The notes beneath the pieces are model-generated. The model did not search any database, was not told the origin of the DNA, and saw nothing but the letters and a program-made list of their open reading frames with translations. Positions 8,153 through 49,372 of a DNA stretch of 64,000 nt are shown here, piece by piece. Both the position numbers and the translations under genes were made by a program. Source of the DNA: Planctomycetota bacterium (GTDB lineage: Bacteria > Planctomycetota > UBA8108 > SXIK01); contig CBDCXR010000004.1 of the NCBI GenBank assembly GCA_965223845.1, positions 6,592,001 to 6,656,000 of the forward strand. Direction: 5' to 3'. The number at the start of each line of letters is the position of its first letter. Positions within the stretch are counted from its first letter, which is position 1.

Positions 8153-8388
8153 ATTGCACACGAAGAGAGCGAAGGAACGCGAAGAAAGACGAAGAAGAGA
8201 ACCTATTGATTCAGAAGTAAGAGCGTTAGTTGAATGCGCCGGTTGTATTCGATTGTCGCGACGATCAACGTGCGCAAGATTTGCACCGGGGTTCTCGTTC
8301 GATTGGAACGATTCCTACCCCACACCCCTTTCCCCTTCTCTTCATCCTTCGTCTTTCTTCGCGTTCCTTCGCTCTCTTCGTGTGCAAT
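8153..8388. repeat. Long inverted-repeat intergenic element (family A, MITE/REP-like), copy 1
   Basis: Perfect 42-bp arms ATTGCACACGAAGAGAGCGAAGGAACGCGAAGAAAGACGAAG (8153-8194, reverse complement at 8347-8388), 152-nt loop, between convergent genes. Confidence 0.92.
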
Positions 8389-8401
8389 TCTTCTCGAGAG
8401 T

Positions 8402-11400
8402 CTATGCGCTCGAGTTCTTCCCCGCGCCCAAGACCTCCAAATACCCCCGAGCGTGAGGCCCCAGCTCAAGCGCCGTCGCCATCCACCCCGAGGGTGAACT
8501 CGCGTCGCCTGGCTCCCTCACCTCCACGCGACCGCCGTAGAGCGTCGCGACCACCCGGCCACCGTGGAGGAGGATCTGTGCCCCGACGATTGCCGGCGTG
8601 CGCGGCCCGTCGTCGAGGATGCCCGTCAGGTTGAGCGGGTCGACGCCCGAGACGACGATCCACTCGTCGCCCGCGGCATCTCGGCGGAGCTTGCGCAAGC
8701 GATCGACCGCGTGCGAATCGGCGTACTGCTCGCCCGCGAGCCCGGTGACGAAGCGCCCGCCGCGGATATCCCCGCGTGTCTCGAGACGCCGGTAGACGCG
8801 AACGAGCTCGTGCCAGCGCGGGGCGTTCGGCTCGCGCTCGAGGAGGTCGCGGCACACAACCCCGTAGCGCCGGAGGAGGAGCTCCGCCCAGCGCTCCACG
8901 CGCTCCGGATGGTCCTCGATCTCGAATCCGGGAAACGCGCTCCAGCGCCCTCCCGTCGCCGCCGCTGCGAGCGTGATCGCGTCGCTGTCCCCAGCGCGAG
9001 ACGGCGCGCGTCGACCGCGCCGCGCGGCGGGACCGGCGAGAGACCGAATGACGCCGAAGCCGTCGCTGCTCGCTCGCCCGCTCGCGACGAGCTCGGCGAG
9101 CGCGCGTCGCACTTGCTCGGCCAGGAGCCCGGTTGCGCGCGCGATCTCTTGCTCGAAGAGAGCGCCACGCTTTTCGAGGAGAGCGAGCACGGCGTCCGCT
9201 TCGCCTCCGAGCGCGCGAGTGTCGCGCGCCTCGCGCGGGAGGATCCAGCCGACGTTTTCCCGCTGGACGATGCCGATCGGCGCGGACTTCGTCGCCTGCT
9301 GCGCCGGTCGCTCGGTCGGACGCGGCGGACGGAGGCGTCCCCACTGAACCGCGCCGCCGAGGAGAAGTTGATCGAGGATTCCGCCCTCGTACTCGACGAC
9401 CCGCGTGGGAAGCACGAGCTCTTCCCACGCCGTCGCCGGAACTTCGCAGCCTTCGAGAAGCTCGATCACGGCGAGGAGTCCGCCGCTTCCGAGTGCCATC
9501 TGCTCGGACGAAGCCATCTGGTGCGAGATGAGAAACCGCCAGAACACTTCGCGCGAAACCGGCTCGATCTGTCGGCGGAGGTGGTCGAGCGTCAAGCGGT
9601 GAATCCGCTGGAGGAGGCGGCGATCGCACCACTCGGTCTCGCCGCGGGCGATCGCGGCCTCGGAGTATTGTCCGCGAAGAACGGTTCCCTCTCCTTCGAG
9701 CGCGACGAGAGCGCGTTCGACGAACTTTCGCTCGAGAGCGAGCGCCTCCGCGAGCTCCTCCGCGGTCTGTGGGCCGCAGATTTCGAGTCGCGCGCGAACG
9801 AGCGAAGTGCGGACGTGAGACGCATCCGCGCTCGACGACGCGAGCTCGGGCGGAAGTTCGATCGCCGGCGAGCACTCGGCACCCGAGTACACCTCACGAA
9901 GATTCGGCCACGTTTCCGCGGCGACCAGGAATCGCGCGTCCGCGTTGACGGCGACGACGGACGCGCGCCCGGCGCGGATGAGGTCGTCCGTCCACTCGGC
10001 CCACGCTCCCGCTTCGCCCGCGGGGAGCACGCCGAGGAGGAGGAGCACCTCGTGGAGCTCTTCCGCATCTCGCACTGTCGGCCGGACTTCGCTCCGTACC
10101 GCCGCGATCGCTTCGGGATCGAGCTTCGCGAGTTCCCGCAGAGCTTCGACGTCGAGCGTCCGCCGCGTCGCCACGGCCCGCGCACGTCTCTCCTCGAGCG
10201 GCGCGTTGTCGAGAAACGTGTAGGGATTCGCGTTGAGGAGCTCGTGCGAAAACGGCGACGGCTCGCGCGAATCGATGCCGACGATCGCGATTTCGCCGCG
10301 CTCGAGACGTTCGAGGACGTCGCGACACGCATCGATGTCCATCGCCTCGTAGAGACAATCGTCGACGGTCTGGCGGACGAGAGGATGATCGGGAATCTCG
10401 ATGTCGCCCGAGTGGTTCTCGAGGCAGGCGGTCTGCTGGGGGAACACCGCCGAGAGGACGTCGTCCGCGCGAAACCGCTGCAGCGGCGGCGGGATCTTCT
10501 TTCCGCCGGAGCGCCGGAGAACGACGAGCGAACGCGTCGCGTTCCACCGCCATCGCGTGAGGAACATCGGGACGGCGAGGATCGCTTGCTCGAGCGTGGT
10601 TCGAAGCTGGCGGGAGGGGACCATGCCAAAGAGCGATTCGAGCGGAAAACTGTGCTGCGGCCCGAGTGCGAGCACGATTCCGTTGTCGTTCGCCGCCGCC
10701 TGGAGTTCGAAGTTGAAGCTCCGGCAGAATCGTTTGCGAAGGGCGAGACCCCAAGCGCGAAGGATGCGACTTCCGAAGGGAGCGTGGATCACGAGCTGCA
10801 TTCCACCGGTGTCGTCGAAGAAACGCTCGAACACGACGCGCTCCTGCGTCGGCACGCACCCGAGAGCAGCGACCTCGACCTCGACGTAGCGGTTCGCCTG
10901 CTCGGCGGCCCAGTCGTCTAGAGCTCCGGCCTGGGCGAGCTCACGGAGACTCCTGCCGATCCCATCGCCGCCGCTCCGTCCGGTCTCTTCGAGGTCGCGC
11001 GCGATGTCGGCACGAAGGCGAGAGACCGCCGCAGAGAGCTCGACCGTGCGGCCGGGAGCCTCGCCGAGCCAAAACGGAATCGTCGCGGGGGCCCCCTTGG
11101 CGTCGTGGACAGCGACTTCCCCGCCGCGCACGTGATCGATCTGCCAGGAGGTCGTCCCGAGCACGAAGATGTCGCCGGCCATGCTCTCGAGGGCGAAGTC
11201 CTCGTTCACCGTTCCGACGTAGGTTCCTTCCTCGACGGTGACGACGCGGTAGTCGGCGTTTTCGGGGATCGCCCCGCCGCTTCCGAGCGCGGAGATGCGG
11301 GCGTTGCGCCGCGGTCGCAGCCTCTTGTGGATGCGATCGCGGTGGAGGTAGAGGCCGAAGCGTTTTCCGTTTCGCCGCTCGTCGCTCAGCATGTGAACGA

Positions 11401-12769
11401 CGGCGTCGAAGTCTTCCCGCGCGAGATCGCGAAACGGCCACGCACGCCGGCAGAGAGCGAAGAGAGCATCTTCGTCGATCGCTCCCCGTGCCACGTGAGC
11501 GACGATTTGCTGAGCGAGGATATCGAGCGGCGCGAGCGGAAGCACGATGCGGTCGAGCTCGCCTTCGTTCACCGCCCGAATGAGCGCGATCGATTCCAGG
11601 AGCTCGTCGCGCGTGAGGGGAAACAGCCGACCCTTCGGCGTGAGGCCGAGAGAGTGACCGGCGCGCCCGACGCGCTGGAGGAAGGTCGCGATCGCGCGCG
11701 GCGATCCGATTTGACAGACGAGATCGATGTACCCGACGTCGATGCCGAGCTCGAGCGACGCGGTCGCGACGATCGCTTTCAGCTCGCCGCGCTTCAGCCG
11801 CTCTTCGGCGTCGAGTCGGATCGCGCGCGAGAGGCTCCCGTGGTGGCTCGTAACCTGTCCGTCGCCCAGCTTCGCGGCGAGATGGACGCAGATTTGCTCC
11901 GCCATCTTCCGCGTATTGACGAAGACGAGCGTGCTCCGGTGCTCCTCGATGAGTTCGCTCAGGCGCGCGTAGACTTCGGCCCACGTCTCGTGGGGGCAAA
12001 CCGCGCTCAGCTCGCTCGATGGCACTTCGATCGCGACGTCGAGATCGCGTTGGTGCCCGACATCGACGATCGTGCAGCGGGGATCGCCGGATTCGTCATC
12101 GACGCACTGCGTGCCGACGAGAAAGCGCGCGACGTCTTCGATCGGACGCTGCGTCGCCGAGAGGCCGATTCGCTGAAGAGGTCCTCCCGCGACCTCGCCG
12201 AGACGCTCGAGCGAAAGCGCGAGATGCGACCCGCGCTTGTCGCCCGCGAGAACGTGGATCTCATCCACGATCACGGTGCGGACGGTACGGAGCAGTTTCG
12301 CGGACTTTTCGGCGGTGAGGAGGAGGAAGAGCGACTCGGGAGTCGTGACGAGGATGTGCGGGGGCCGGCGAAGCATCGCCTGACGTTCGGAGGCGGGGGT
12401 GTCCCCGGTGCGAACTCGCGCCGTGATCGCGGGTGCATCGGGAGCTGAGTCGGCGAGGGCCGCGCCGATCTCGGCGAGCGGCGTCTCGAGATTGCGCCGG
12501 ATGTCGTTTGAGAGTGCCTTGAGCGGCGAGACGTAGACGACGTGAACTCCGTCGTCGAGCCGGTCGTCGACCGCCGCGCGAACGAGTCGATCGATGCAGA
12601 CGAGGAACGCCGTCAGCGTCTTTCCCGAGCCGGTCGGCGCGGCGACGAGCACGTGGCCGCCGCCGTCGATCGCCCGCCACCCGTCGAGCTGCGGCGGGGT
12701 CGGTCCCTCGAAGTGGCCTTCGAACCAGCGTCGCGTGAGGGGATGAAAGATCGCGCTCAAGTCGCTCAT
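8402..12769 (-). CDS. lhr: ATP-dependent helicase Lhr (SF2 DExH, full length with C-terminal winged-helix/AlkZ-like region)
   Basis: APTGSGKT, YVSPLKALSND, TTPESL, DEIH, LSAT, HHGSLS, TASLELGIDVG, QRVGRAGH; C-terminal LLRRYGVVCR...GDIRGGRFV typical of long Lhr. Confidence 0.95.
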   Translation of the reverse strand: MSDLSAIFHPLTRRWFEGHFEGPTPPQLDGWRAIDGGGHVLVAAPTGSGKTLTAFLVCIDRLVRAAVDDRLDDGVHVVYVSPLKALSNDIRRNLETPLAEIGAALADSAPDAPAITARVRTGDTPASERQAMLRRPPHILVTTPESLFLLLTAEKSAKLLRTVRTVIVDEIHVLAGDKRGSHLALSLERLGEVAGGPLQRIGLSATQRPIEDVARFLVGTQCVDDESGDPRCTIVDVGHQRDLDVAIEVPSSELSAVCPHETWAEVYARLSELIEEHRSTLVFVNTRKMAEQICVHLAAKLGDGQVTSHHGSLSRAIRLDAEERLKRGELKAIVATASLELGIDVGYIDLVCQIGSPRAIATFLQRVGRAGHSLGLTPKGRLFPLTRDELLESIALIRAVNEGELDRIVLPLAPLDILAQQIVAHVARGAIDEDALFALCRRAWPFRDLAREDFDAVVHMLSDERRNGKRFGLYLHRDRIHKRLRPRRNARISALGSGGAIPENADYRVVTVEEGTYVGTVNEDFALESMAGDIFVLGTTSWQIDHVRGGEVAVHDAKGAPATIPFWLGEAPGRTVELSAAVSRLRADIARDLEETGRSGGDGIGRSLRELAQAGALDDWAAEQANRYVEVEVAALGCVPTQERVVFERFFDDTGGMQLVIHAPFGSRILRAWGLALRKRFCRSFNFELQAAANDNGIVLALGPQHSFPLESLFGMVPSRQLRTTLEQAILAVPMFLTRWRWNATRSLVVLRRSGGKKIPPPLQRFRADDVLSAVFPQQTACLENHSGDIEIPDHPLVRQTVDDCLYEAMDIDACRDVLERLERGEIAIVGIDSREPSPFSHELLNANPYTFLDNAPLEERRARAVATRRTLDVEALRELAKLDPEAIAAVRSEVRPTVRDAEELHEVLLLLGVLPAGEAGAWAEWTDDLIRAGRASVVAVNADARFLVAAETWPNLREVYSGAECSPAIELPPELASSSADASHVRTSLVRARLEICGPQTAEELAEALALERKFVERALVALEGEGTVLRGQYSEAAIARGETEWCDRRLLQRIHRLTLDHLRRQIEPVSREVFWRFLISHQMASSEQMALGSGGLLAVIELLEGCEVPATAWEELVLPTRVVEYEGGILDQLLLGGAVQWGRLRPPRPTERPAQQATKSAPIGIVQRENVGWILPREARDTRALGGEADAVLALLEKRGALFEQEIARATGLLAEQVRRALAELVASGRASSDGFGVIRSLAGPAARRGRRAPSRAGDSDAITLAAAATGGRWSAFPGFEIEDHPERVERWAELLLRRYGVVCRDLLEREPNAPRWHELVRVYRRLETRGDIRGGRFVTGLAGEQYADSHAVDRLRKLRRDAAGDEWIVVSGVDPLNLTGILDDGPRTPAIVGAQILLHGGRVVATLYGGRVEVREPGDASSPSGWMATALELGPHARGYLEVLGAGKNSSA

Positions 12770-12940
12770 GGAGTGCTCGACATAGTTCGTCGGAGTACCG
12801 GTGCGTCCGGGTCGACCGGATGTCCATCCTCACCCCGTCCGGGCCGGGATCAAGCGGGCTTGTGTGCGACTTCGACCGCGGGAGTGCGACCGCGGGCCGA
12901 GGCCGTGCGCGTGACGGTGGGCGGTCGCCTCCTGCATTCC

Positions 12941-12969
12941 TTGACTTGATCCCGCGTTTCGCGTATCAC
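12941..12969 (+). promoter_or_regulatory. Possible sigma70-type promoter for the 13065 gene
   Basis: TTGACT-N17-TATCAC in the divergent intergenic region. Confidence 0.35.
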
Positions 12970-13064
12970 CCCAGGCAGCCGAGAGCCTTTTCGCGTAGTG
13001 GTTTACGGTCGCCGCGAGCTCTCGGGAGAAGAAGAGAAGAGAGCGCCGGAGGCAGCGCCGGAGC

Positions 13065-14843
13065 ATGACTCGAAAGCTGCGCATCGCCCGAACCACGCCC
13101 GCTCGGATGGCCGTTCTGCTTGTGTCCATCCTCGCGGCAGGCTCGGTTCAGGTCGCGACCTTTGCCGACCCGCCGACGGCAAACGAGCCGGCGCCGGAGG
13201 AGGCCCCGCCGGCGAACGTCCCCCTCGTGGACATTCGCGTGGACGACGTCCCGGCGTTCGTGAGCGCCTGGAAGACGACGCTCTCGGGGCGCCTGTTGTC
13301 GCACCCCGCGTGCGTTTCGCTCGCGGCGGGAGTAACCGAGCGCATCGACGCGGAGCTTCGCGAGCTCGCCGAGGAGCTCGGCGGCACGATCGAGCCGGGT
13401 TGGTTTGCGCGACTGCTCGATCGCGCGGTCGACACCAGTTCGGAAGCGAGCGCGACCGGTTCCCGTCGTCTCGTCCTCCGACTCTCGCCCGATCGGCGAC
13501 TCGCGTGGGAGGTCGCGGCCGCGACCGGCGAGATGCCCGCGCTCGCCGTTCCGCCCTGCCTCGCAGAGTACGACCTGATCGGAGCGGTCGACCTCGCGGC
13601 GATCGCCGAGGTTCCGCTCGGCGGCGGCGCGGAGGGGACCGAAGCCGGCGCGCGCGACGATCTCCGTCTCGTCGCGACCGCACTCGGACTCGACTTGCTC
13701 GGAACTCTCTGGTTCGGTGCTCGGGTGCGACGCGGTGCCCTCGAGCTCGAGTTCGCGTTTCCGGATCTCGATCGCCCGCGCGGTCTGCTCGAAGCGATCG
13801 CCGCGGCGGTGCATCCGAAGACGAACGTCGGCGGTGCGCTCGCGTTCGTCCCCGCGCGCACGGAGGCCGTGAGTTCGTTCGCGATTCGCCCCGGCGCTGC
13901 GCTTCGTTCTCTTCGGCAGTTCGTGCGGCGGCGACTCCCGGAGGTCTCGCCGTGGCTCGATGCGCGCGAGGCCGAGGTGAAAGCAGCGATCGGTCTCGAC
14001 GCGGTCCGGAGGATCGAGGGGCTCGGGGATCTTTCCCTGTGCGTCTTCTCCGTCGCTGCGCCCGCCGGCGGAGCCGAGGACACGATCGCGATCGCGCGCG
14101 CCGACGAGACCGCCCCCTACTGGGAGGTTCTCCGGCGCATCGCAGCTCACCTGGCGATCGAACCACGCCGCGTCGTCGTCGACGATTCGTCGCACGGCAC
14201 GATCGAGATCGAGACGTTCGACTTGCGGTCGATCGTCGCTCGCGCGCGGGAGGCGTCGGCTGGCCAAGGAGGAGCGCCGCGGGTCATCGGAGCGGCCGTC
14301 GAGCTCGCGTCGAACACGGTGCCGCTCGTCGCTCGCACGGAGATCGGCGAGGGATGGTGTTGCTACTCGACGTCGACGCAGGCGCTCGTTCGGTACCGGC
14401 GGAGCTATTTGCGCGAGAGAAAGCTCATCTACGACGGCGAAGCACTCGAGCTCGTGACCGCCACGACTCGAGGAGCGATCGTCGGCAGCTGCGCGCGAAG
14501 CGGCGAGGCGATGCTCACCGCCTACAACTCGGTCGTCGCCGAGCTCGGTGCGCCGAGTCGGCCGGGAATTCGACGGCCGGAATGGAAACGCACTCTCGAC
14601 GCGCTCCTCCTTCCCGCCGGCGAGTCGTTCGCCGCGAGCACCGGTTGGGGGGCCATGCGCTGGGAATGGGTGCGCGGCGCAGGGGATGGCGAGCGCTCGG
14701 CGCGCGGAGTTCGCCTCTCGAGCCGGCGCCTCCTCAATGAGCGCTGGTTGGCCGCGTTCCTGCGCGAAACGGACCGGCGCCGAAGCGGCGCGCAACTCAC
14801 CGCGATTTCGCGCCCGCCGCCCGCGGAGAGAGTGGACCGGTGA
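13065..14843 (+). CDS. Hypothetical exported protein
   Basis: GGAG before ATG, signal-peptide-like N-terminus (AVLLVSILAAGSVQVATFA), normal codon usage, GTGA overlap with the next gene; no family recognised. Confidence 0.7.
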   Translation: MTRKLRIARTTPARMAVLLVSILAAGSVQVATFADPPTANEPAPEEAPPANVPLVDIRVDDVPAFVSAWKTTLSGRLLSHPACVSLAAGVTERIDAELRELAEELGGTIEPGWFARLLDRAVDTSSEASATGSRRLVLRLSPDRRLAWEVAAATGEMPALAVPPCLAEYDLIGAVDLAAIAEVPLGGGAEGTEAGARDDLRLVATALGLDLLGTLWFGARVRRGALELEFAFPDLDRPRGLLEAIAAAVHPKTNVGGALAFVPARTEAVSSFAIRPGAALRSLRQFVRRRLPEVSPWLDAREAEVKAAIGLDAVRRIEGLGDLSLCVFSVAAPAGGAEDTIAIARADETAPYWEVLRRIAAHLAIEPRRVVVDDSSHGTIEIETFDLRSIVARAREASAGQGGAPRVIGAAVELASNTVPLVARTEIGEGWCCYSTSTQALVRYRRSYLRERKLIYDGEALELVTATTRGAIVGSCARSGEAMLTAYNSVVAELGAPSRPGIRRPEWKRTLDALLLPAGESFAASTGWGAMRWEWVRGAGDGERSARGVRLSSRRLLNERWLAAFLRETDRRRSGAQLTAISRPPPAERVDR

Positions 14844-15550
14844 AGCGAGTTCTCGTGCTCCGGCACGGAATCGTGATCAACCGGTACTTCATGGTGCCGA
14901 TGGAGCGGTACTTTCGTCGGCTCGGATACGACGTTCACAACCGCGGTTATCCGACGACGAAGAAAGCGGTGCGCGAGCACGCTCGTGACCTCGTCGATGA
15001 AATCCGAGCGATCGACATCGACCTCTCGGCGCGCGGCGAAGAATACGAGCTCTACTGTATTACGCATTCGCTCGGCGGCCTCGTTCTCCGCTACGCGCTC
15101 ACCCACTTCGACCTCCCCCGAGTGCGGCGAGCCGTGCTCCTGGTCCCGCCGAACCAGGGAGCGGTGACGGCGCGTCACTTCAAAAACTTTCCGCCGTACC
15201 GATGGCTCTTCGGGGGGAAGGCGGGCCGCGAGCTGACTCAAGATCCGCCCGGGATCTTCGGTGAGTGCGGCGTTCCCGACAATTGTGAGATCGGGATCAT
15301 CGCGGGCGATGTTCGCTACCGGATGTGGGGCGCCCCCGTCGAGAGACCGCACGACGGTGTCGTCGAGGTGCGGGAGGCGGAGCTTCCGCCGTACCCGCTT
15401 CGCGTCCTTCCCTACGGCCACACGCCGATCCTCTTCGTCCGCTATGCCTGGGAGGAGACCGAGCACTTCCTCCGCCACGGACGGTTTCGTGCGGCCGAAG
15501 CGGCCGGGCGTTCGACGGAATCTTCGGCGAGATCCGGGCCATCGCGGTAA
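14840..15550 (+). CDS. Alpha/beta hydrolase (lipase/esterase-like)
   Basis: Oxyanion motif LRHGI, nucleophile elbow THSLGG, HDGVV, GHT (catalytic His). Confidence 0.88.
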   Translation: MKRVLVLRHGIVINRYFMVPMERYFRRLGYDVHNRGYPTTKKAVREHARDLVDEIRAIDIDLSARGEEYELYCITHSLGGLVLRYALTHFDLPRVRRAVLLVPPNQGAVTARHFKNFPPYRWLFGGKAGRELTQDPPGIFGECGVPDNCEIGIIAGDVRYRMWGAPVERPHDGVVEVREAELPPYPLRVLPYGHTPILFVRYAWEETEHFLRHGRFRAAEAAGRSTESSARSGPSR

Positions 15551-15691
15551 AAGCGAGCTGAGTCCGCTCCCACACTTGCCATAGAATGACGGCAAGATTC
15601 GCATCCGCTCTTCATTCCGTTCGCGGAGTGAGCCGGCGCCGACGATCTCCGCGCAGATTCTCGGCCGGCGTTTCTTTCGGGGGCCAGACTC

Positions 15692-17350
15692 ATGGAACTA
15701 CCCTATGCTTTGAGCTCGGCGGAGGGCCCACCGGGCGCCGGGCGCCGCTCGCGCCGCGTTTCTCTCCTCGTCCTCGGGCTTGCCGGCGTGGTCGCGCCGC
15801 TTGCGGCCTTTGCGCAGGACGGTGAGGTCCTCATTCCGATCGGCGTCGAGTGGCGATACTTCAAGGGGACGGAGGCGCCGCCTGTCGAGTGGAATGCACG
15901 CGATTTCGATGACGGCGACTGGCTCGCGGGCGAGACGGGAATCGGCTACGGAGACGGTGACGACGCGACCATCCTCGACGACATGGAGGACGGCTACGCG
16001 AGCGTCTACTGCCGGCGATCGTTTACCGTCGCCGACGCTGCGTCGCTGCGTCGTCTCATCCTTCGGATCGACTACGACGACGGATTCGTCGCGTACTTGA
16101 ACGGAGCCGAGGTGGTGCGCCGCGGACTCGACGGCGAACCTCCTCCCTTCGATGCGTTCTCCTCTAGCCACGAGGCGGGCACGCCGGAGACGATCGATCT
16201 CAGCGCCGGGCTCGAAGTGATCGAGAACGGAGTGAACGTGCTCGCGGTTCAGGTCCACAACACCTCGATCGGGAGCTCCGACCTGTCGTTCGTCCCGGAG
16301 CTCGCCGCCAACGAGTTGCTCTGCCCGACGAACGCCGCGTGTTCCTTCGCCGAAGGCGAAACGACGGTGACCGTGAGCTGGGTCAATACCACCGAGTACG
16401 ATCGAATCGAAGTTCGCCGGAGTGGGGCGATCCTCACCGATGATCTCGACGGGACGACTCAGGAGTTCGTCGATCTCGACCCGCCGTCGGGCGAGCTCGA
16501 GTACGAGATCGTCGCGATCGACGCCGGTGTGCCGTGCGATCCGCTGCGGTGCACCGTCGCTGTGTTCACGGCACAGGACGTCATGGTCCGTCCCGGCGAC
16601 GAGTGGAGCTACTTCAAGGGGACGGAGCCACCGCCGTCCGCGTGGAATCTACCGGAGTTCGACGACGAAGAGTGGCTCGTCGGCGATACCGGCATCGGCT
16701 ACGGCGACGGCGACGACGAAACGATCCTCGACGATATGGAGGACAACTATCTGACGGTCTTCTGCCGGCGTGTCCTCGACATCGAAGATCCGGACGCGCT
16801 CGCCGCGCTCCGATTCTCTTCGGTTTGCGACGACGGCCTCGTCGTCTATTTGAACGGCGTCGAGGCGGGACGCTACAACATCGACGAGAACGAGGATCCG
16901 GACTACGACACGGCGGCGTCGAGCGCGATCGAGCCGTCGGTTTTCGAGCTGACGCTTCCCGTCGGCGAGCTCGGCCCGGGAGAGAATGTGCTCGCCGTCA
17001 GCGTGCACAACGCCGGAGCGGGCAGCTCCGATCTTTCGTTCATTCCGACGGTGATCCGCATCCTCCGCGTGGAGAAGCCGCGCTTCCGACGCGGCGATGC
17101 GACGAACGATACCGGAGTGAACCTCGCCGACGCGGTGGCCATTCTCGGCTATCTATTCCGGGGGGAGCGCGAACCCGCGTGTCTCGACGCAGCGGACACG
17201 AACGACGACGGGAGCGTGAATCTGAGCGACGCGATCTTCCTCCTCACCGCGCTCTTTAAGGGCGGGCCTGAGCCGCCGGCACCCGGCCGAGAATGCGGCG
17301 AAGACGGGACTGCGGATTCGCTCGGCGTCTGTCGGGGGCGGGGTTGTTGA
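15692..17350 (+). CDS. Secreted protein with two galactose-binding-like beta-sandwiches, an Ig/Fn3-like linker and a C-terminal dockerin-like domain
   Basis: Signal peptide ending AFA; duplicated WxYFKGTExPP...GIGYGDGDD...DDG.V.YLNG...NVLAV.VHN...SSDLSF; C-terminal FRRGDATNDTGVNLADAV...DTNDDGSVNLSDAI. Confidence 0.88.
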   Translation: MELPYALSSAEGPPGAGRRSRRVSLLVLGLAGVVAPLAAFAQDGEVLIPIGVEWRYFKGTEAPPVEWNARDFDDGDWLAGETGIGYGDGDDATILDDMEDGYASVYCRRSFTVADAASLRRLILRIDYDDGFVAYLNGAEVVRRGLDGEPPPFDAFSSSHEAGTPETIDLSAGLEVIENGVNVLAVQVHNTSIGSSDLSFVPELAANELLCPTNAACSFAEGETTVTVSWVNTTEYDRIEVRRSGAILTDDLDGTTQEFVDLDPPSGELEYEIVAIDAGVPCDPLRCTVAVFTAQDVMVRPGDEWSYFKGTEPPPSAWNLPEFDDEEWLVGDTGIGYGDGDDETILDDMEDNYLTVFCRRVLDIEDPDALAALRFSSVCDDGLVVYLNGVEAGRYNIDENEDPDYDTAASSAIEPSVFELTLPVGELGPGENVLAVSVHNAGAGSSDLSFIPTVIRILRVEKPRFRRGDATNDTGVNLADAVAILGYLFRGEREPACLDAADTNDDGSVNLSDAIFLLTALFKGGPEPPAPGRECGEDGTADSLGVCRGRGC

Positions 17351-17380
17351 CGCTGTTTTGTGTTCCTTTGGAGGAGATTC

Positions 17381-17594
17381 ACACGAAGAACGCGAAGGGG
17401 ACGCGAAGGAAGACGAAGGGCAGAGGAGGAATTAGAGAATGAGCATCAAATGCCGATCTCTGATTGAAGAATGAAGTGCAGATGTCGTGACTTGATCTGG
17501 CCGTCCGCGATCTCATTCCGCGCACACACACACACTCACTCTCTCTCTTTCTCTTTCTTCGTCTGCCTTCGCGTCCCCTTCGCGTTCTTCGTGT
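17381..17594. repeat. Long inverted-repeat element family A, copy 2
   Basis: 38-bp arms (17381-17418 and 17557-17594) with one mismatch; loop contains a (CA)n(CT)n tract; between convergent genes. Confidence 0.92.
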
Positions 17595-17612
17595 AAAACT
17601 CTTCTTCGGGAA

Positions 17613-19028
17613 TCAGCGCCGATCTAGCGCCCAAACGCGCAGCACCTCGTCCTTCCCGCCCGAAACGATGTTCCGCCGATCCGGAGTCATCACCGCATCG
17701 AGCGGCGGACGCTCGTGTCCTTCGAACCGGCGGAGCTCGCGTCCGCTCTTCACGTCCCAGACGCCGACGGTGTAATCGGTTCCTGGCCGCCAATCGGTAT
17801 ACGACGTAAACGCACCCCCCGCGGCGGTGATGACGAGGCGTCCGTCCGGAGAGAACCGCGCCGAGTGAACACAGTCGTCGTGGCCATCGATCTTGCGCGC
17901 GAGCTTGCCTGTCCGGAGCGACCAAACGTAGACGACACCGTCCCAGCTCGAGGCGAGCGCGTAGCGGCCGTCCGGGGAAACGTCGACTCGGGTCACGAAC
18001 CCTGACGGCCCGCGCAGTCTGCGGATCGCCCTTTGTTCCGCGATCCCCACGATCTGGACGGTCTGGCCGAACGCGACGACGATCTGATCGCCCTTCGGCG
18101 TAAAGGCGATGCTATTGACCTTGTAGGCGCGAGTCCCCACCGGAAAACGGACATCGCCGAAGCGCTTCCGCGTTCCGAAGAGAATCTCGCCGTCGTCCGA
18201 GCCCGCCGCGATCCAGCGACCGTCGCGCGAGACGGCGATCGAGCGAAGCTCCGCGTCGAAGCCGAGGAACGATTCCATCTCCGCGCCGTCCTTCGCTCTC
18301 CAAAATCGGACCGAGGCGTCATCGCTCGCGGAGACCACCCAGGAGCTGTCCGGTCCGAATGCGACGGCCTTGACCTTGTCGGAATGCCCGGTGAGACGGT
18401 GCATGGGCTCGGATTTTTTGAGGTCCCACAGCCAGAGCGTTCCGTCGGAGCTGCCGGATGCGATGTACTTCCCGTTCGGGGAGACCGCGACCGAATAGAC
18501 CGTATCGGAGTGGCCGCGGAGGAGCGTCGCCTCATCGGTGAGGCCGTTTTCGAGCTTGAACTGCCTCAGCTCCCGTCCGAGCTCGGTGGCATCGGCCTCC
18601 TTTTTCGCGCGGCGGTAGCGGTCGATTCCGCGCTCGTACGCGCGCACGAGCGTCTCGGCGTTCTTCTTTCGCGATGCGATGAACTCCTCGTACGGCTCGA
18701 TCACGGCGGGCGTTTCGGGCGCTGTGCCTTTCCGTTCGAACGCGTTCCGTTCGCCGATGAGGGTACGGGCAGTTTCGCTGTCGCCGCGAGCGGAAGCCGC
18801 TTCGATCTCTGCGTTGAACGTCATGACGAGAGTCATCCGCAGCCGATCGACGTCTTGAGTGAACTCGAGCTTCGCTCGTTCGACCTGTTCGCGAACTGGA
18901 TCGGCAGCGAGCGTCCGACTCGGAGACGTGCACACGACGACGCCCAGGAGCGCGATGGCAACTCGATCCCAGCGGACTCCGCGCCGCCGGAGCGCAGCGA
19001 AGATCGATTTGGCGGCTGTTCGCGTCAT
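17613..19028 (-). CDS. Exported WD40-repeat beta-propeller protein with N-terminal helical domain
   Basis: Repeats such as GHSDTVYSVAVSPNGKYIASGSSDGTLWLWD and GHSDKVKAVAF...VRFW, about 7 blades; N-terminal hydrophobic segment. Confidence 0.92.
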   Translation of the reverse strand: MTRTAAKSIFAALRRRGVRWDRVAIALLGVVVCTSPSRTLAADPVREQVERAKLEFTQDVDRLRMTLVMTFNAEIEAASARGDSETARTLIGERNAFERKGTAPETPAVIEPYEEFIASRKKNAETLVRAYERGIDRYRRAKKEADATELGRELRQFKLENGLTDEATLLRGHSDTVYSVAVSPNGKYIASGSSDGTLWLWDLKKSEPMHRLTGHSDKVKAVAFGPDSSWVVSASDDASVRFWRAKDGAEMESFLGFDAELRSIAVSRDGRWIAAGSDDGEILFGTRKRFGDVRFPVGTRAYKVNSIAFTPKGDQIVVAFGQTVQIVGIAEQRAIRRLRGPSGFVTRVDVSPDGRYALASSWDGVVYVWSLRTGKLARKIDGHDDCVHSARFSPDGRLVITAAGGAFTSYTDWRPGTDYTVGVWDVKSGRELRRFEGHERPPLDAVMTPDRRNIVSGGKDEVLRVWALDRR

Positions 19029-19403
19029 GAACCTTGAACTTCCTCGAGATGGCGAGCGACGGAGCGTCGCGGTGAGACCGCAAACCTTAGCTTAGACTCG
19101 GCGCGACTTCGAGCCGTCCCGGGCGACTCTAGGCCGCGGCTCTCGAACACGCAACCGGTTCGAGCGCAGATTCTCACCGGATCCCTCATTCTGAGGGACG
19201 AACGGGCACCCGGCCAATTCATTCGACCCTCGCGATCGCCGGCGTCGTTCGTCGTTTTCTGCGGAGTGTGGTCCGTTCCGATCGCCGGAGACGGCGCACG
19301 TCTTGCCCCGGCGCGGTTGGCGCCTGCGGTGATTTCCACTATCCTCCGAAACGCATTGTTCAACGCGTCTGCGTTTCGGAACTGTCCGTTCGTGAGGTTT
19401 CTC

Positions 19404-20321: not shown

Positions 20322-20337
20322 CTTCTTGGGGATGGAG

Positions 20338-20652
20338 ATTTCACACGAAGGGTGCGAAGGGGACGCGAAGGAAGACGAAGGAAGATCGAGAATAGGAGGT
20401 AGAGAGGAAGAGGGATTGGAGAGTAGAGAGAGCGTGCGAGCTGAGTTGGCCCCGCAAGTACTCGACAACGTCTACCGAGGGGAAGCCTTCGTGAACGGAA
20501 AACAGATAGGCCGTCAGAAACGCGCCGCCTGAGACCTTTTCCCACACCTGTTGACGTTCCCCGAAAACCTGAAGATGACCTCTTTCCCAACTCCCTCTTT
20601 TTCTCTTCCCTTCGTCTTCCTTCGCGTTCCCTTCGCACCCTTCGTGTGAAAT
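20338..20652. repeat. Long inverted-repeat element family A, copy 3
   Basis: 44-bp arms (20338-20381 and 20609-20652) with one G/A difference (a G-U pair in + strand RNA); 227-nt loop with purine-rich left and pyrimidine-rich right edges. Confidence 0.92.
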
Positions 20653-20689
20653 TGTCTCCACGGAAGGCCAAATAAGATGAGCAACGTGA

Positions 20690-21196: not shown

Positions 21197-21197
21197 C

Positions 21198-37496: not shown

Positions 37497-38404
37497 ACTG
37501 GAACGTATTCAGCACTCTCGTGACCGCGGTACGCACGCAGCGACCGTCGGAGGCGCGCGGAAAGGAGTCGATCCCGGCGGCGCCTCCCTACGAAGCGATT
37601 CGAACGCGGCGCCGGTTTCCTTGGCTCGCCGCGGCGATCGGCGGGGGGATCTTCACGGCCCTCGTGTTTCTCTTTCTCGGCTCCCTGCAGCCGCCGGTGA
37701 ATAGCAGCGAGAGGCTCGAGCTTCCCCAAGTGCTCACCTTCGATCTCGAAGCGACGAAGGCTCGTAAGCCTCCGCCTCCCCCGCCGAAGCCGGAGAAGCA
37801 GAAGCCAAAGGAGCGAAAGCGTGTCCGGCCGAAGACCCAGACGAAGACCGTCGCGCGTACGACACGTTCGCTGTCGCCGCGACGGACGCGTTCGAGCGCG
37901 GCGCCGCGGATGCGCGCGGACATCGCTCGCGGGCTCGCCGGGATCTCGCTCTCGGCGGCGGGCTCGGGGCTGGGAGGCGGCGGGCTCGCGCTCGACCTTT
38001 CGGGCGAGGCGATGGACTTCGCGGCTGAGGCGGCGGACTTCCTTCAGTACCAGGAGCGCCGGCGCATGGCGAGAGAGCGTCAGTTCTCGCGTGAGCGAAC
38101 GGCGCGGCGATCGGCGTCGACCTCGGCACGCGCCGCGCGGCTCGAGCATCGCGCGCGGCCGGTCTACCCCTACGACGCGCGGAAGAACGAGATCGAGGGC
38201 TGGGTCGTCTTCGACATGCTCGTGGGGATCGACGGCGCCGTGGAGGAGTGCAAGGTGATCGACGGCTCGCCGCCGGGCGAGTTCGAGGACGCGATTCTCG
38301 CGATCGCTCCGCGCTGGCAGTTCTCGCCGGCGAAAGACGACACCGGTCGCCCCATCGAGGAGTGGGTGCGTTACCGCTACGAGTTCAAGCTGGAGGATGC
38401 CTGA
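37493..38404 (+). CDS. tonB: Energy transducer TonB
   Basis: ATG 37493 overlaps the exbD stop; TM anchor, Pro/Lys-rich linker PPPPPKPEKQKPK, C-terminal PVYPYDARKNEIEGWV...WQFSPAK. Confidence 0.92.
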   Translation: MNWNVFSTLVTAVRTQRPSEARGKESIPAAPPYEAIRTRRRFPWLAAAIGGGIFTALVFLFLGSLQPPVNSSERLELPQVLTFDLEATKARKPPPPPPKPEKQKPKERKRVRPKTQTKTVARTTRSLSPRRTRSSAAPRMRADIARGLAGISLSAAGSGLGGGGLALDLSGEAMDFAAEAADFLQYQERRRMARERQFSRERTARRSASTSARAARLEHRARPVYPYDARKNEIEGWVVFDMLVGIDGAVEECKVIDGSPPGEFEDAILAIAPRWQFSPAKDDTGRPIEEWVRYRYEFKLEDA

Positions 38405-41053: not shown

Positions 41054-41110
41054 ACTCTCGCCTACAAACCCCTCTCCTCTTTCCCGCCCCACGCTCGCCT
41101 GTCCCCTCTT

Positions 41111-41150
41111 CCTTCGTCTTCCTTCGCGACCTTCGCGCTCTTCGTGTGAA
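41111..41150. repeat. Family A element, solo right arm (copy 4)
   Basis: CCTTCGTCTTCCTTCGCGACCTTCGCGCTCTTCGTGTGAA matches the right-arm consensus; no left arm found nearby; between convergent genes. Confidence 0.85.
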
Positions 41151-41169
41151 CCTCTTCTCTTCTCTTCTC

Positions 41170-41877
41170 TTACCGCGGCGATGCCACGTCCTGTTCCGCG
41201 AGCTTGTAGCCCACGCCCCGCACCGTCACGATCAGATCGCGTGCGGGTCCGAGCTTACTTCGAATCGAGCGGATGCGTACGTCGATGTTCCGCTCGTCGA
41301 CCCTTCCGCCGCGCTGCATGCGCTGCAGAAGCTCTTCGCGTGTGAAGGCCCGACCGGGCTGGGTTGCAAGCGCAACGAGGAGCTGAAACTCGGAGAGACT
41401 GAGTGAGACTTCCGTGCCGTCGACGAGAACGACGTGTCGATCGGTGTCGATGAAGATGCCGTTGTGCTCGATCGCGATCCCCGGCGGGAGCGATACGCGG
41501 ATGCGGCGCCGCTTGATGATCTGGCGGAGGCGCTCGACGCAGCGGTCGGTTTCGATCGGGCCGAAGACGCAGTCGTCGGCTCCCTGGGCCCGACAGCCGT
41601 CGATGTGGCACGATCCCGGGTGGAGGGCGAGTAGCACGATCGCCGCCTCGCGCGACCCCGGTTCTTCGCGGAGCCGCTGGATCCAATCGAAGCGGTCGTC
41701 GCCGGGTGAGCTCGGCGAAACGAGGACGAGACTCGGGCAGATCTCGTGCGCGGCGCGGACGCAGCGCTCGTCGCGTTCCTCCGAACGGACCGTGGCACCT
41801 TCCAGTTCGAGGGCTTCAGAGAGCTCGGAGATCTCAGCGTCGGGATAACCGACGCACAGTATGGTTTCGCCTTTCAT
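41170..41877 (-). CDS. Atypical (pseudo-receiver) OmpR/PhoB-family regulator
   Basis: Intact winged helix (LSLSEFQLL...RNIDVRIRSIRSKLG...TVRGVGY); receiver lacks the acidic pair, phospho-Asp, Thr and Lys. Confidence 0.85.
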   Translation of the reverse strand: MKGETILCVGYPDAEISELSEALELEGATVRSEERDERCVRAAHEICPSLVLVSPSSPGDDRFDWIQRLREEPGSREAAIVLLALHPGSCHIDGCRAQGADDCVFGPIETDRCVERLRQIIKRRRIRVSLPPGIAIEHNGIFIDTDRHVVLVDGTEVSLSLSEFQLLVALATQPGRAFTREELLQRMQRGGRVDERNIDVRIRSIRSKLGPARDLIVTVRGVGYKLAEQDVASPR

Positions 41878-48240: not shown

Positions 48241-49131
48241 ATGTCTCCCATGTACGACATGTCAAAAGCGAGCGAGGCGGGCGCTGCGCCGCCGATTCCG
48301 AACGACCTCACCGATGCCGGCCCGGTCACCGAAGTGTCCGAGAGCGGCAGCGACCCCGCCGAGAACTTCGACAACGCAACACCCGCGCTCGTCGTGAAGT
48401 CGCTGTCGCTCTGGTACGAGCGGGCGCAGGCCCTCTTCGACGTGTCGCTCGAGATCCCCGAACGCCGCATCACGGCGTTCATCGGTCCTTCGGGCTGCGG
48501 CAAGTCCACGCTTCTGCGGTGCTTCAATCGTCTGAACGATCTCATCCCGGGGGTTCGCATCGAAGGGGACATCGAGCTCTACGGCGCGAGCCTGCTCGAT
48601 CCGTCCGTCGATGTGACGGCGCTCCGCCAGCACATCGGCATGCTCTTTCAAAAATCGAACCCGTTCCCGATGTCGATCTACGAAAACGTCGCCTACGGGT
48701 GCCGCATCCTCGGGATGAAGGACCGGCGAGAGTTCGACGAGATCGTCGAGCGGAGCCTCCGCGGTGCGGCCCTCTGGGACGAGGTGAAGGATCGAATGAA
48801 GGAGTCGGCGATGGGACTTTCGGGCGGGCAGCAGCAGCGACTCTGCATCGCGCGGGCGATCGCCGTGGAGCCGGAAGTGATCCTTCTCGACGAGCCGTGC
48901 TCGGCGCTCGATCCGATCGCGACGATGAAGATCGAGGACCTGATGCAGGACCTGAAGAAGAAGTACACGCTGGTCATCGTGACCCACAACATGCAGCAGG
49001 CGTCACGCGTTTCGGACTACACGGCGTTCATGTACCTCGGAAAGCTCGTCGAGGTGGGGCCGACGGAGAAGATGTTCGTGAAACCGGAGAACGAGCAGAC
49101 TCGGGATTACATCTCGGGGCGCTTCGGGTAG
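48241..49131 (+). CDS. pstB: Phosphate ABC ATPase PstB
   Basis: [63 protein letters not shown]. Confidence 0.97.
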
Positions 49132-49148
49132 GAGGGAGAGAGAACCGG

Positions 49149-49372
49149 TTCACACGAAGTGCGCGAAGGGGACGCGAAGGAAGACGAAGGAGAGAGGGAA
49201 TAGAGGATGTGAGATTGAGTGTGTCGGAGATTCTACGTCTCACTCGACGTTCGTCGTCTCCGTCGATTTGCTGGTTGGGCCGCTGCCCTCTCGTTCGCAT
49301 CGCTCTTCTCTCTCCGCCTTCTACAAATCAACGATTTCCTCTGCTTCCTCTTCCTTCGCGCACTTCGTGTGA
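49149..49372. repeat. Long inverted-repeat element family A, copy 5
   Basis: Full left arm 49149-49190; right arm 49353-49372 pairs perfectly over 20 bp (TCACACGAAGTGCGCGAAGG) and lacks one internal unit; between convergent genes. Confidence 0.88.

What the first reader, a model, noticed from the sequence alone, without database searches (positions are those of the whole stretch)
8153..49372. Intergenic long-inverted-repeat family whose two arms co-vary within each copy and enclose unrelated cargo
Seen: five copies in 64 kb (8153-8388, 17381-17594, 20338-20652, solo arm 41111-41150, 49149-49372). Each arm is about 40 bp built from four CGAAG units (consensus CACACGAAG-NNNG-CGAAGG..CGCGAAG.AAGACGAAG). 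The variable tetramer differs per copy (AGAG, AACG, GGTG, AGCG, TGCG) but is identical in both arms of every paired copy. Arms are therefore more like their partner than like other copies. The 138-227 nt loops are mutually unrelated, with purine-rich left and pyrimidine-rich right edges. Four of five copies lie between convergent genes, and no transposase is in the window. Inference: either selection maintains a long RNA/ssDNA stem, or a mechanism templates one arm from the other. It could be a non-autonomous mobile or cassette-capture element, or a 3'-end processing signal. From unverified memory, similar CACGAAG-periodic arms flank small GxxExxY (PD-(D/E)XK-like) genes in some genomes, which would be a candidate mobiliser.
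Basis: partly seen in the sequence, partly recalled or inferred. Interest (0 to 1): 0.8.

Follow-up and report, generated by a model that had tools for sequence, protein, structure and literature searches.

The report
Hairpin repeats linked to GxxExxY nuclease
These are copies of a genome-specific family of long hairpin-forming repeats sitting just after gene ends; they belong to a widespread, apparently undescribed class of small selfish-looking elements that sometimes carry a tiny nuclease gene, resembling the intervening sequences of ribosomal RNA.

Summary
The window holds 9 arms against 0.36 expected. The genome holds about 141, as 38 inverted pairs plus about 57 true solos.

Arms are 4-5 tandem 9-11-nt units ending in CGAAG. 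The outer edge is sharp and the inner purine tail fades.

Partner arms share variants beyond chance, but modestly. Identity is 0.855 within pairs and 0.80 between copies. The tetramer is identical in 17 of 29 scorable pairs, with 6.3 expected.

Pairs are units: 24 double-armed convergent spacers against 0.65 expected. They have no target duplication, and their loops are unrelated and low in GC.

The widest pair encloses an intact GxxExxY (PD-(D/E)XK) gene.

Across the phylum, GxxExxY genes and the unrelated four-helix-bundle "23S IVS protein" genes are bracketed by the same kind of inverted tandem-unit arms. Gene-less arrays far outnumber the genes.

Best reading (0.55): gene-less members of a REPIN/RAYT-like, IVS-like selfish hairpin-element class. 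Mobility and the nuclease's role are inferred, not shown.

The parts
8149..8204 (+). Copy 1, left arm (AGAGATTG-CACACGAAG-AGAG-CGAAGG...), 11 nt after the stop of the HEAT/TPR gene 5456-8137
8205..8336 (.). Copy 1 loop, unique low-GC sequence with purine-rich left and pyrimidine-rich right edges
8337..8392 (-). Copy 1, right arm (inverted), 9 nt after the stop of the Lhr-type helicase gene 8402-12769 (-). The whole element folds as RNA into a ~55-bp stem, -133 kcal/mol, z -12.7
17372..17427 (+). Copy 2, left arm, 21 nt after the stop of gene 15692-17350
17548..17603 (-). Copy 2, right arm, 9 nt after the stop of the WD40 gene 17613-19028 (-)
20334..20389 (+). Copy 3, left arm, 12 nt after the stop of gene 19329-20321
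20446..20565 (.). Nested ~105-bp repeat inside the loop of copy 3, shared only with the loops of two other copies (C4:1.656 Mb and 6.408 Mb)
20601..20656 (-). Copy 3, right arm, 33 nt upstream of the start of the same-strand SLOG-family gene 20690-21196 (tandem, not convergent, context)
41101..41156 (-). Solo arm, 13 nt after the stop of the response-regulator-type gene 41170-41877 (-). It lies in a 116-nt convergent spacer with no room for a partner and no downstream complement
49143..49198 (+). Copy 5, left arm, 11 nt after the stop of the ABC-ATPase gene 48250-49131
49334..49379 (-). Copy 5, right arm, lacking one CGAAG unit, 18 nt after the stop of gene 49398-52274 (-)

Best explanation
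The five window copies are gene-less members of a genome-specific family of hairpin elements. The family has about 141 arms, as 38 pairs plus about 57 true solos, and a 37-arm sister family.

**Anatomy.** Each element is a unit made of two inverted arms and a unique low-GC interior. Each arm is a tandem array of 4-5 units of 9-11 nt ending in CGAAG, with a fixed head (AAGAGnTTCAC).

**Class.** The family is one local version of a phylum-wide class. In that class, inverted arrays of short tandem units bracket either nothing or a small gene. The gene is a GxxExxY PD-(D/E)XK nuclease or an Avd-like four-helix-bundle "23S IVS" protein. This genome keeps one gene-bearing copy, with all invariant residues of the family present, at C4:7761174-7761835.

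**Inferred mechanism.**
- The elements enter short promoter-free spacers, usually right behind a stop codon, without duplicating the target.
- They are co-transcribed with the neighbouring gene.
- They fold into a 45-55-bp stem, as ssDNA or RNA. That stem is the feature recognised for propagation or maintenance.
- The relation to the single nuclease gene resembles that of REPINs to their RAYT. The layout resembles rRNA intervening sequences, whose stems RNase III cuts.
- Partner arms stay alike because they arrive together and then correct each other by arm-to-arm gene conversion, or because pairing is selected.
- Solo arms are decaying remnants of pairs.

**Shown:** anatomy, counts, context, pair-as-unit, co-variation, the gene association here and across the phylum.
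**Inferred:** mobility, the nuclease's role, RNA folding in vivo.
For: **Family and anatomy**
- 114 core matches against 2 for the reversed control.
- nhmmer census: 135 arms at E<0.01.
- Sharp outer edge and fading inner edge.

**Pairs are units**
- 24 double-armed convergent spacers against 0.65 expected from independent arms.
- Element-free convergent spacers have a median of 62 nt, matching the summed outer flanks of pairs.
- Loop GC is 0.54-0.57, like the cargo ORF (0.58) and unlike ordinary spacers at 0.64-0.66.
- Paired arms are better conserved than solos: median 44.1 against 38.3 bits, p = 1e-4; 3.61 against 3.04 intact units. This is the signature reported for REPIN doublets against singlets (passages of PMC3116915).

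**Co-variation**
-, including 11 shared variants that are rare elsewhere in the family.

**Gene link in this genome**
- The genome's best PDDEXK_3 hit (E 6e-41) lies inside the widest pair.
- TIGR04256 scores 147 bits against a cut-off of 35.
- All 13 invariant residues are present, including D74, E84 and K86.
- The model has pLDDT 93.8 with a restriction-endonuclease-like fold.

**Generality across the phylum**
- GxxExxY occurs in 55 of 121 genomes, many copies truncated.
- Inverted tandem-unit arms flank the gene in 19 of 30 loci above the maximum of 200 control genes; by eye in 28-29 of 30.
- Four-helix genes: 25 of 30 loci above that control maximum.
- Own-pair scores have medians of 41-42 against 17-18 for cross-copy pairs.
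- Arrays (22-74 per genome) far outnumber cargo genes. In G117 the gene-bearing pair uses the same unit as that genome's gene-less hairpins.

**Patchiness**
- 0 of 3 same-family genomes have the gene.
- The exact family is at control level in the 40 relatives searched.

**Stop-codon proximity**
- Here: 101 of 141 arms, median 19 nt.
- Cassettes elsewhere: medians of 19 and 4 nt.

**Folding**
- -133 kcal/mol, z -12.7.

**The IVS parallel**
- Passages of PMC4990558 describe a 28-bp terminal inverted-repeat stem, an AG-rich tract, tandem GACAGAT heptamers, a small ORF in the loop, and RNase III cuts in the stem.
Against: - No two copies share a loop, so there is no trace of recent copy-and-paste of a whole element.
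- No remnant of either cargo gene is detectable in the other 37 loops.
- No target duplication. No strict empty site: relatives are only 50-65% identical and synteny differs. No presence/absence polymorphism in four DNA runs of one study.
- The nuclease's role rests on co-location only.
- Cassettes with the four-helix protein carry no nuclease, so arms may be moved or maintained by something else.
- Stems are imperfect: 436 one-arm-only differences in 38 pairs.
- The gene-bearing copy has rather dissimilar arms (0.78 identity).
- Arms are conserved while loops are saturated. That needs ongoing conversion or selection, which could equally indicate a host function.
Confidence: 0.55

Rival explanations
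1. Host-serving 3'-end RNA hairpins. The arms are kept by selection because the long stem right after the stop codon ends, stabilises or processes the upstream mRNA, for example as an RNase III site or an exonuclease block. The nuclease gene is an incidental passenger.
For: - 101 of 141 arms lie a median of 19 nt behind a same-strand stop codon.
- Strong enrichment in convergent spacers (43 of 789) over divergent ones (6 of 789).
- Arms are conserved while loops are not.
- Shared variants keep pairing.
- Very stable predicted RNA stem.
- STRR hairpins have been proposed to stabilise transcripts (passage of PMC2670836).
Against: - The family is missing from the relatives searched, including 3 same-family genomes, so the flanking genes manage without it elsewhere.
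- Flanking genes are functionally unrelated.
- No T-run, whereas a canonical terminator is used in the next spacer.
- Stems carry many mismatches.
- Solos cannot form the stem and look decayed.
- The association with two patchy, often degraded gene families is typical of selfish DNA.
Confidence: 0.12
2. The hairpins are landing pads, not vehicles. Small selfish genes (GxxExxY, four-helix bundle) insert preferentially into the loops of pre-existing tandem-unit hairpins, which arise and spread by another route.
For: - Only 1 of 38 pairs here carries a gene.
- Two unrelated gene families occupy the same kind of hairpin.
- Arrays greatly outnumber genes.
- Classical IVSs sit in rRNA hairpin loops (recalled; PMC4990558 places its IVS in helix 45).
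Against: - In most of the 59 other loci the arms bracket the gene tightly, with gaps of about 5-90 nt.
- The gene-bearing pair uses the genome's own unit type.
- This does not explain how the hairpins themselves multiply.
- Neither point excludes this reading.
Confidence: 0.12
3. An ordinary MITE: terminal inverted repeats of an insertion sequence, moved in trans by a conventional transposase encoded elsewhere in the genome.
For: - Inverted arms, small size, intergenic location and many copies.
- Repeated subterminal units resemble multiple transposase-binding sites (sequence; established knowledge of Tn7 and Mu ends, recalled).
Against: - No target-site duplication: 3.45 against a control of 3.35.
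- Interiors are unrelated.
- No transposase in the window.
- Wider + / - arm pairs enclose ordinary genes, not a transposase.
- Only two marginal Y1 transposase hits (23 bits), not near arms.
- The only gene found between arms is the PD-(D/E)XK protein.
Confidence: 0.07
4. Break-healing origin. Both ends of a double-strand break are extended from the same template by unit-wise synthesis and then joined with filler DNA. This yields two inverted arms, matching each other, around unrelated DNA.
For: - Sharp outer and ragged inner arm boundaries, with slippage-like purine and microsatellite tails.
- Unit-number variation between arms.
- Unrelated loops.
- No target duplication.
- Partner arms share rare variants.
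Against: - Purely inferential: no template or polymerase was identified.
- Loop composition resembles cargo rather than local DNA, but filler of unknown source is not excluded.
- It does not explain the tight, phylum-wide association with two gene families.
Confidence: 0.07
5. Pairs are coincidences. Each arm is an independent 3' module of its own gene, and convergent genes that both have one look like an inverted repeat.
For: Arms are sense-oriented behind stop codons, and true solos are common.
Against: - Expected double-armed convergent spacers under independence: 0.65. Observed: 24.
- A further 13 pairs sit in tandem contexts where the second arm has no gene of its own.
- Partner arms share variants.
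Confidence: 0.02

Closest known systems
REPIN / RAYT systems (REP doublets forming hairpins and their single-copy Y1 transposase; PMC3116915, abstract and passages read)
   Same: - Genome-specific repeat families in extragenic space.
- Inverted doublets are over-represented and better conserved than singlets.
- The spacer is less conserved than the arms.
- Compensatory changes occur across the hairpin.
- An associated gene sits next to or between the repeats at about one copy per genome.
- No target duplication (this last point is recalled).
   Different: - The associated gene is a PD-(D/E)XK GxxExxY protein, not an HUH/Y1 RAYT. Y1_Tnp gives only two marginal hits, unlinked to arms.
- Each arm is a tandem array of 9-11-nt units, not a short palindrome.
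- Spacers are 60-560 nt and mutually unrelated, rather than short and of fixed length.
23S rRNA intervening sequences with an S23p / four-helix-bundle ORF (PMC4990558, abstract and passages read)
   Same: - A long stem made of terminal inverted repeats.
- An AG-rich tract and short tandem repeats next to the stem.
- A small ORF of unknown function in the loop.
- ORF decay.
- Regarded as selfish.
- The four-helix-bundle family (PF05635) is bracketed by inverted tandem-unit arms in 25 of 30 loci here.
   Different: - None of the G000 copies, and none of the 59 cassette loci examined, lies in an rRNA gene.
- G000 has no PF05635 gene.
- RNase III excision is untested here.
Cyanobacterial STRR (short tandemly repeated repetitive) sequences (passage of PMC2670836; the original description is recalled, not read)
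   Same: Tandem short-unit (7-bp) repeats in intergenic DNA that can form hairpins, with function unknown.
   Different: - Units here are 9-11 nt.
- A link of STRR to GxxExxY or four-helix genes was not tested here, and I did not find one in print.
MITEs such as Correia or ERIC elements (recalled; review PMC3184786 seen only in a search listing)
   Same: Small, intergenic, with inverted ends, many copies, often co-transcribed with neighbours.
   Different: No target duplication, no conserved interior, and no cognate transposase.

Membership tests
Classical MITE | Terminal inverted repeats | tested here: met
   38 inverted pairs, arms of about 45-55 nt
Classical MITE | Target-site duplication flanking the element | tested here: not met
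   Longest shared direct word in 14-nt flanks is 3.45, against 3.35 +- 0.15 in shuffled pairings
Classical MITE | Interior related among copies and to a parent IS that has a transposase | tested here: not met
   Loops are unrelated. No transposase between arms or in the window
REPIN / RAYT | Inverted doublets over-represented and able to form a hairpin | tested here: met
   24 double-armed convergent spacers against 0.65 expected; fold at z -12.7
REPIN / RAYT | Doublets more conserved than singlets | tested here: met
   Median 44.1 against 38.3 bits, p = 1e-4. Caveat: the profile was built from both kinds of arm
REPIN / RAYT | Associated single-copy RAYT (Y1/HUH transposase) flanked by the repeats | tested here: not met
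   PF01797 gives two 23-bit hits far from any arm. The flanked gene is TIGR04256 GxxExxY
REPIN / RAYT | Each repeat is itself a short imperfect palindrome (REP) | tested here: not met
   Arms are direct tandem arrays of CGAAG units
23S rRNA intervening sequence | Long stem of terminal inverted repeats around a variable interior, sometimes with a small ORF | tested here: met
   Features taken from passages of PMC4990558
23S rRNA intervening sequence | Inserted in a helix of the 23S rRNA gene | tested here: not met
   The single 23S gene is at C4:2871475-2874468, without an arm. No rRNA in the 59 cassette loci
23S rRNA intervening sequence | Excised from the transcript by RNase III | not testable with these tools
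   No RNA run is listed for this organism
Intrinsic (rho-independent) terminator | GC-rich stem followed directly by a T-run | tested here: not met
   No element among the 8 terminator-like sites in 7900-21300. A canonical one lies at 21202-21238
Any Rfam family | Match at the gathering score | tested here: not met
   0 matches in the window. The permissive scan gives only a 41-bit hit to a plant miRNA precursor model whose gathering score is 137
GxxExxY protein (TIGR04256 / PF13366), for the ORF in the C4:7.761 Mb copy | Profile match above the cut-off, with the invariant residues present | tested here: met
   147.3 bits against a cut-off of 35. G29, G31, L33, E34, Y37, E44, D74, E84, K86, Q98, N115, F116 and R127 are all present
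PD-(D/E)XK nuclease fold, for the same ORF | Restriction-endonuclease-like fold | tested here: met
   pLDDT 93.8. The top hits I could recognise by name are PD-(D/E)XK proteins, but weak: Foldseek E 2.5e-3, VIA Z at most 7.7. No specific subfamily can be named

The most novel reading that the evidence does not exclude
Inverted arrays of short tandem units are the common chassis of a large, unrecognised class of bacterial selfish elements.

- Their gene-less hairpins form genome-specific populations, like REPINs.
- They are propagated or maintained by a small PD-(D/E)XK GxxExxY nuclease, in the role that RAYT plays for REPINs.
- The same chassis carries the Avd-like four-helix-bundle protein.
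- 23S rRNA intervening sequences, and perhaps cyanobacterial STRR hairpins, are special cases of this class.

This would give a first function to two widespread orphan protein families and explain where rRNA IVSs come from.
Probability: 0.35. Interest if true: 0.85.

Novelty: new variant of a known kind. Interest (0 to 1): 0.72.

Why it matters
GxxExxY (PF13366/TIGR04256) and the non-DGR members of PF05635 are common, patchy and functionally blank. PF13366 is listed as "unknown, multiple transfers" in PMC3424549 (table row read). The word "GxxExxY" occurs in only 3 papers of the held library.

This work shows that both families ride in the same kind of tandem-unit hairpin, and that gene-less hairpins form large genome-specific populations. 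That turns these proteins, the origin of rRNA intervening sequences, and STRR-like repeats into one testable question.

It would also add a second, mechanistically different example beside REPIN/RAYT of a repeat population tied to a single-copy nuclease gene.

Practically, these 45-55-bp stems directly behind stop codons should matter for mRNA ends, operon polarity and assembly breaks. Contigs of four runs break exactly at the arms.

Tried and rejected
**Searches for the family elsewhere**
- Rfam at gathering score and permissive: nothing real.
By my own estimate this is the chance level; no multi-copy genome was listed.
- Metagenome scan with a 23-base three-unit pattern: 4 contigs. Two (L120, L122) have a second inverted arm and a short loop. 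None is close to this genome.

**Expression and population data**
- RNA evidence: no RNA holder listed.
- Contigs of 4 DNA runs (one study) laid on window 5000-24999: they break at arms. Only short-sided joints between arms appear, which are typical of repeats. No supported joint removes an element.

**Tests of element structure**
- Target duplication, stem extension outside the arms, and tail similarity: none.
- Remnants of GxxExxY or four-helix genes in the other 37 loops: no score above shuffled loops.

**Possible cargo or mobilisers**
- Wider + / - arm pairs (1016, 1358 and 3027 bp) as composite elements: they bracket ordinary ORFs. Judged from the ORF lists only, without a Pfam scan.
- The second PDDEXK_3 hit, at 7.043 Mb: no flanking arms.
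- PF05635 in this genome: none.
- Y1 transposase: two marginal hits, not associated with arms.

**Protein structure**
- PDB by sequence: no match.
- Fold searches: only generic PD-(D/E)XK similarity.

**Comparisons with relatives**
- Empty-site test at the pstB-like gene: the 8 relatives' loci carry no comparable repeat behind the gene, but identity is 50-65% and downstream synteny differs. It is not a true empty site.
- GC ahead of solos, 0.60, is intermediate and undecided.

**Considered and dropped without a test**
- An integron attC-like reading: the repeats flank the cargo on both sides, and no integrase was sought.

**Literature searches that found no description of the architecture**
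-. Subscription journals and database family comments could not be searched.

Full report
**1. The observation**

The core CACACGAAG-NNNN-CGAAGG, with up to 2 mismatches, occurs 9 times in the window against 0.36 expected; 0 of 100 shuffles reach 9. The window is G000:C4:6592001-6656000, in a 7.93-Mb, 65% GC genome. Genome-wide the core, with up to 1 mismatch, occurs 114 times against 2 for the reversed control.

An iterated nhmmer profile finds 159 arms at E<=1 and 135 at E<0.01. I worked with 141 arms at E<0.05.

Each arm has a fixed head (AAGAGnTTCAC), then 4-5 units of 9-11 nt each ending in CGAAG. It has a sharp outer boundary and a purine-rich inner tail that fades over about 30 nt. Rfam has nothing.

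**2. Pairs, solos and loops**

38 arm pairs lie head-out, spanning 167-662 bp. The order is always + then -.

About 8 of the 65 unpaired arms have a variant partner that my threshold missed. 57 have no downstream complement.

Loops are 63-558 nt and mutually unrelated. The exception is a nested ~105-bp repeat present in three loops only.

There is no target-site duplication, no pairing outside the arms, and no partner similarity in the tails.

**3. Co-variation**

- Partner arms are 0.855 identical against 0.80 between copies; 0 of 5000 permutations reach this.
- The partner is the best or tied-best match for only 22 of 76 arms.
- The tetramer is identical in 17 of 29 scorable pairs, with 6.3 expected.
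- Column by column, partners share 134 non-consensus states against 84 +- 7 expected (maximum 110 in 2000 permutations).
- These sit almost entirely in the three spacers. 11 of them are rare elsewhere in the family.
- 436 differences sit on one arm only.

**4. Context**

With a codon-usage gene caller of my own, 101 of 141 arms lie within 100 nt behind a same-strand stop codon, at a median of 19 nt.

- Pairs: 24 convergent, 13 tandem, 1 divergent.
- Solos: the same-strand gene lies behind the arm in 52 of 65.
- Arms occupy 43 of 789 convergent, 51 of 3315 tandem and 6 of 789 divergent spacers.

If arms were placed independently, 0.65 convergent spacers would have two; 24 do. So the pair is a unit.

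Element-free convergent spacers are short (median 62 nt) and have GC 0.66. Loops have GC 0.54, or 0.574 in their centres. So the loop is not local spacer DNA; arm-loop-arm appears to sit in a formerly short spacer.

Paired arms are better conserved than solos: 44.1 against 38.3 bits, p = 1e-4.

Copies are concentrated around the cumulative GC-skew minimum (5.75 Mb) and are rare near its maximum (1.9 Mb). By the usual reading of GC skew these are the origin and terminus.

The first window copy folds as RNA into a ~55-bp stem (-133 kcal/mol, z -12.7). The elements lack a T-run, while a canonical terminator lies in the next spacer.

**5. The gene**

The genome's best PF13366 match (E 6e-41) lies exactly inside the widest pair, C4:7761174-7761835. 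It is a 130-aa ORF with a literal G-LL-E-SA-Y motif.

- It scores 147 bits on TIGR04256.
- It keeps all 13 invariant residues of a 22-member alignment, including D74, E84 and K86.
- It models confidently (pLDDT 93.8).
- Its fold is a generic restriction-endonuclease-like one: the best hits are Cas4, a Spirosoma REase-like protein and Hjc, with Z at most 7.7.

The second, weaker PDDEXK_3 hit has no arms. This genome has no PF05635 gene and only two marginal Y1-transposase hits. No transposase family was found among 33 called window proteins.

**6. Generality**

*GxxExxY.* TIGR04256 occurs in 55 of 121 sampled genomes of the phylum, at 1-13 matches each, many of them truncated or with stops.

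- In 30 fetched loci the gene is bracketed by inverted arms made of 3-4 tandem units of the form CAC/CGC plus purines. Examples are CACGAAG, CACAGAG, CGCAAAG, CACGGAG, CACGGAA and CACAGAT.
- 19 of 30 loci score above the maximum (36) of 200 control genes. By eye, 28-29 of 30 show such arms.
- A strict three-unit regex finds inward-facing arrays on both sides in 17 of 30 loci. Array density there is 0.64 per kb, against 0.028 per kb in G000 overall.

*Four-helix bundle.* The unrelated PF05635 family occurs in 61 of 121 genomes.

- It is likewise bracketed by inverted tandem-unit arms in 25 of 30 loci above the control maximum.
- Its units are much more varied.

*Own pair against cross-copy.* An arm matches its own partner far better than arms of other loci: medians of 41-42 against 17-18.

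*Arrays against genes.*
- Generic three-unit arrays occur in 52 of 121 genomes, and reversed-pattern controls are mostly 0 (at most 4).
- Several genomes have 22-74 arrays but only 0-7 GxxExxY genes.
- In G117, compact ~75-nt gene-less hairpins and the gene-bearing pair use the same unit.

*Location.*
- Cassettes elsewhere also abut stop codons, at medians of 19 and 4 nt.
- None of 59 cassette loci lies in an rRNA gene.
- Nor does any G000 arm.

*Close relatives.*
- 0 of 3 same-family genomes and 5 of 17 same-order genomes have the gene.
- Arrays are likewise patchy.
- The exact G000 family is at control level in 40 relatives.

**7. What it most likely is**

The simplest account of sections 2-6 is a selfish hairpin element whose vehicle is the pair of inverted tandem-unit arms. 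The window's copies are its gene-less majority.

Three known systems frame it:

- **REPIN/RAYT** (PMC3116915, passages). It shares the over-represented and better-conserved doublets, the decaying singlets, the compensatory changes, and a single associated gene among the repeats. It differs in the enzyme (PD-(D/E)XK, not Y1), in the arm grammar, and in the long, unrelated spacers.
- **23S rRNA intervening sequences** (PMC4990558, passages). They share the stem, the AG-rich tract, tandem heptamers and a small ORF in the loop. The copies here are not in rRNA.
- **STRR hairpins** (PMC2670836, one passage). These are tandem 7-bp units forming intergenic hairpins of unknown function.

That the arms are recognised as a folded stem, that the GxxExxY protein acts on them, and that they are mobile are inferences.

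The co-variation needs no special templating mechanism. Joint origin of the two arms, plus arm-to-arm gene conversion between close inverted repeats (established for palindromes and quasi-palindromes; recalled), or selection for pairing, would produce it.

**8. What speaks against it, and what is open**

- No two copies share a loop.
- No cargo remnants are detectable.
- No empty site, polymorphism or RNA data could be had.
- Four-helix cassettes carry no nuclease.
- Arms are conserved while loops are saturated. That requires ongoing conversion or selection and leaves room for a host function.

The rivals are scored in their own sections: host 3'-end hairpin, landing pad for small genes, ordinary MITE, break-healing synthesis, and coincident solo modules.

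**9. Novelty**

I found no description of the arm architecture, or of its link to GxxExxY, in the searchable library.

- PF13366 is listed as function unknown (PMC3424549, table row).
- PF05635 is noted as Avd-like (PMC10053308, one passage).
- Curators' comments on the NCBIfam models, and subscription journals, could not be checked.

I rate it a new variant of known kinds (REPIN-like, IVS-like), with a substantial chance of being a distinct class.

Noticed in passing
G000:C4, 37 sites (e.g. 5413717/5413940, 7388338/7388561); none in the window: A sister repeat family with head TTCACCACGAAGG and units CACGAAGG: 37 arms, 6 inverted pairs of 146-270 bp. It is spread more evenly along the chromosome. 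23 of 37 arms lie behind a same-strand stop codon.
   Followed up: partly
L011 215-260 (G000:C4:6701514-6701559): A minimal perfect hairpin made only of the outermost ~18 nt of the arm (AAAGAGGTTCACACGAAG, 8-nt loop, then its complement). It lies about 35 nt after a full arm.
   Followed up: no
window 20446-20565; also C4:1656098-1656201 and 6408081-6408146: A ~105-bp repeat, partly self-complementary, that occurs only inside the loops of three hairpin elements, in either orientation.
   Followed up: partly
G000:C4, whole chromosome: Arms cluster around the cumulative GC-skew minimum (5.75 Mb): 121 of 141 lie between 3 and 7.9 Mb. They are nearly absent around the skew maximum (1.9 Mb).
   Followed up: no
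window 21202-21238 (-): A canonical intrinsic terminator (17-bp stem plus T-run) between the SLOG-family gene and the large dockerin/PA14 gene. It shows that this genome uses ordinary terminators.
   Followed up: no
G000:C4:142192 (-), 7761835 (-) and others: Some arms run straight into (GA)n and then (GT)n microsatellites of 30-40 nt.
   Followed up: no
G003:C1:1302718-1302868: A same-family relative without the gene has one long head-to-tail array, spanning about 150 nt, of the 9-mer CACGAAGAG, the same unit type as G000's arms.
   Followed up: no
G048:C1, at least 35 sites: One genome has at least 35 PF05635 matches. Groups of them share the same E-values and the same in-frame stops (1 TGA, or 1 TGA + 1 TAG), which suggests a recently amplified, interrupted copy.
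   Followed up: no
L185 (G075:C16:3486-5470): A four-helix cassette with a 117-nt almost perfect inverted repeat, ending in GTGTAGAAG-type units. It is much longer than the usual arms.
   Followed up: no
window 52361-63998 (-) and 29811-38404 (+): Three consecutive very large Beta_helix/NosD-like genes (1451, 1493 and >780 aa), and a TonB-dependent receptor with an ExbB-ExbB-ExbD-TonB cluster. Neither is related to the repeats.
   Followed up: no
L120 373-491 and L122 584-718 (metagenome contigs): CGAAG-unit arms as inverted pairs around loops of about 45-75 nt, in unrelated metagenome contigs.
   Followed up: partly
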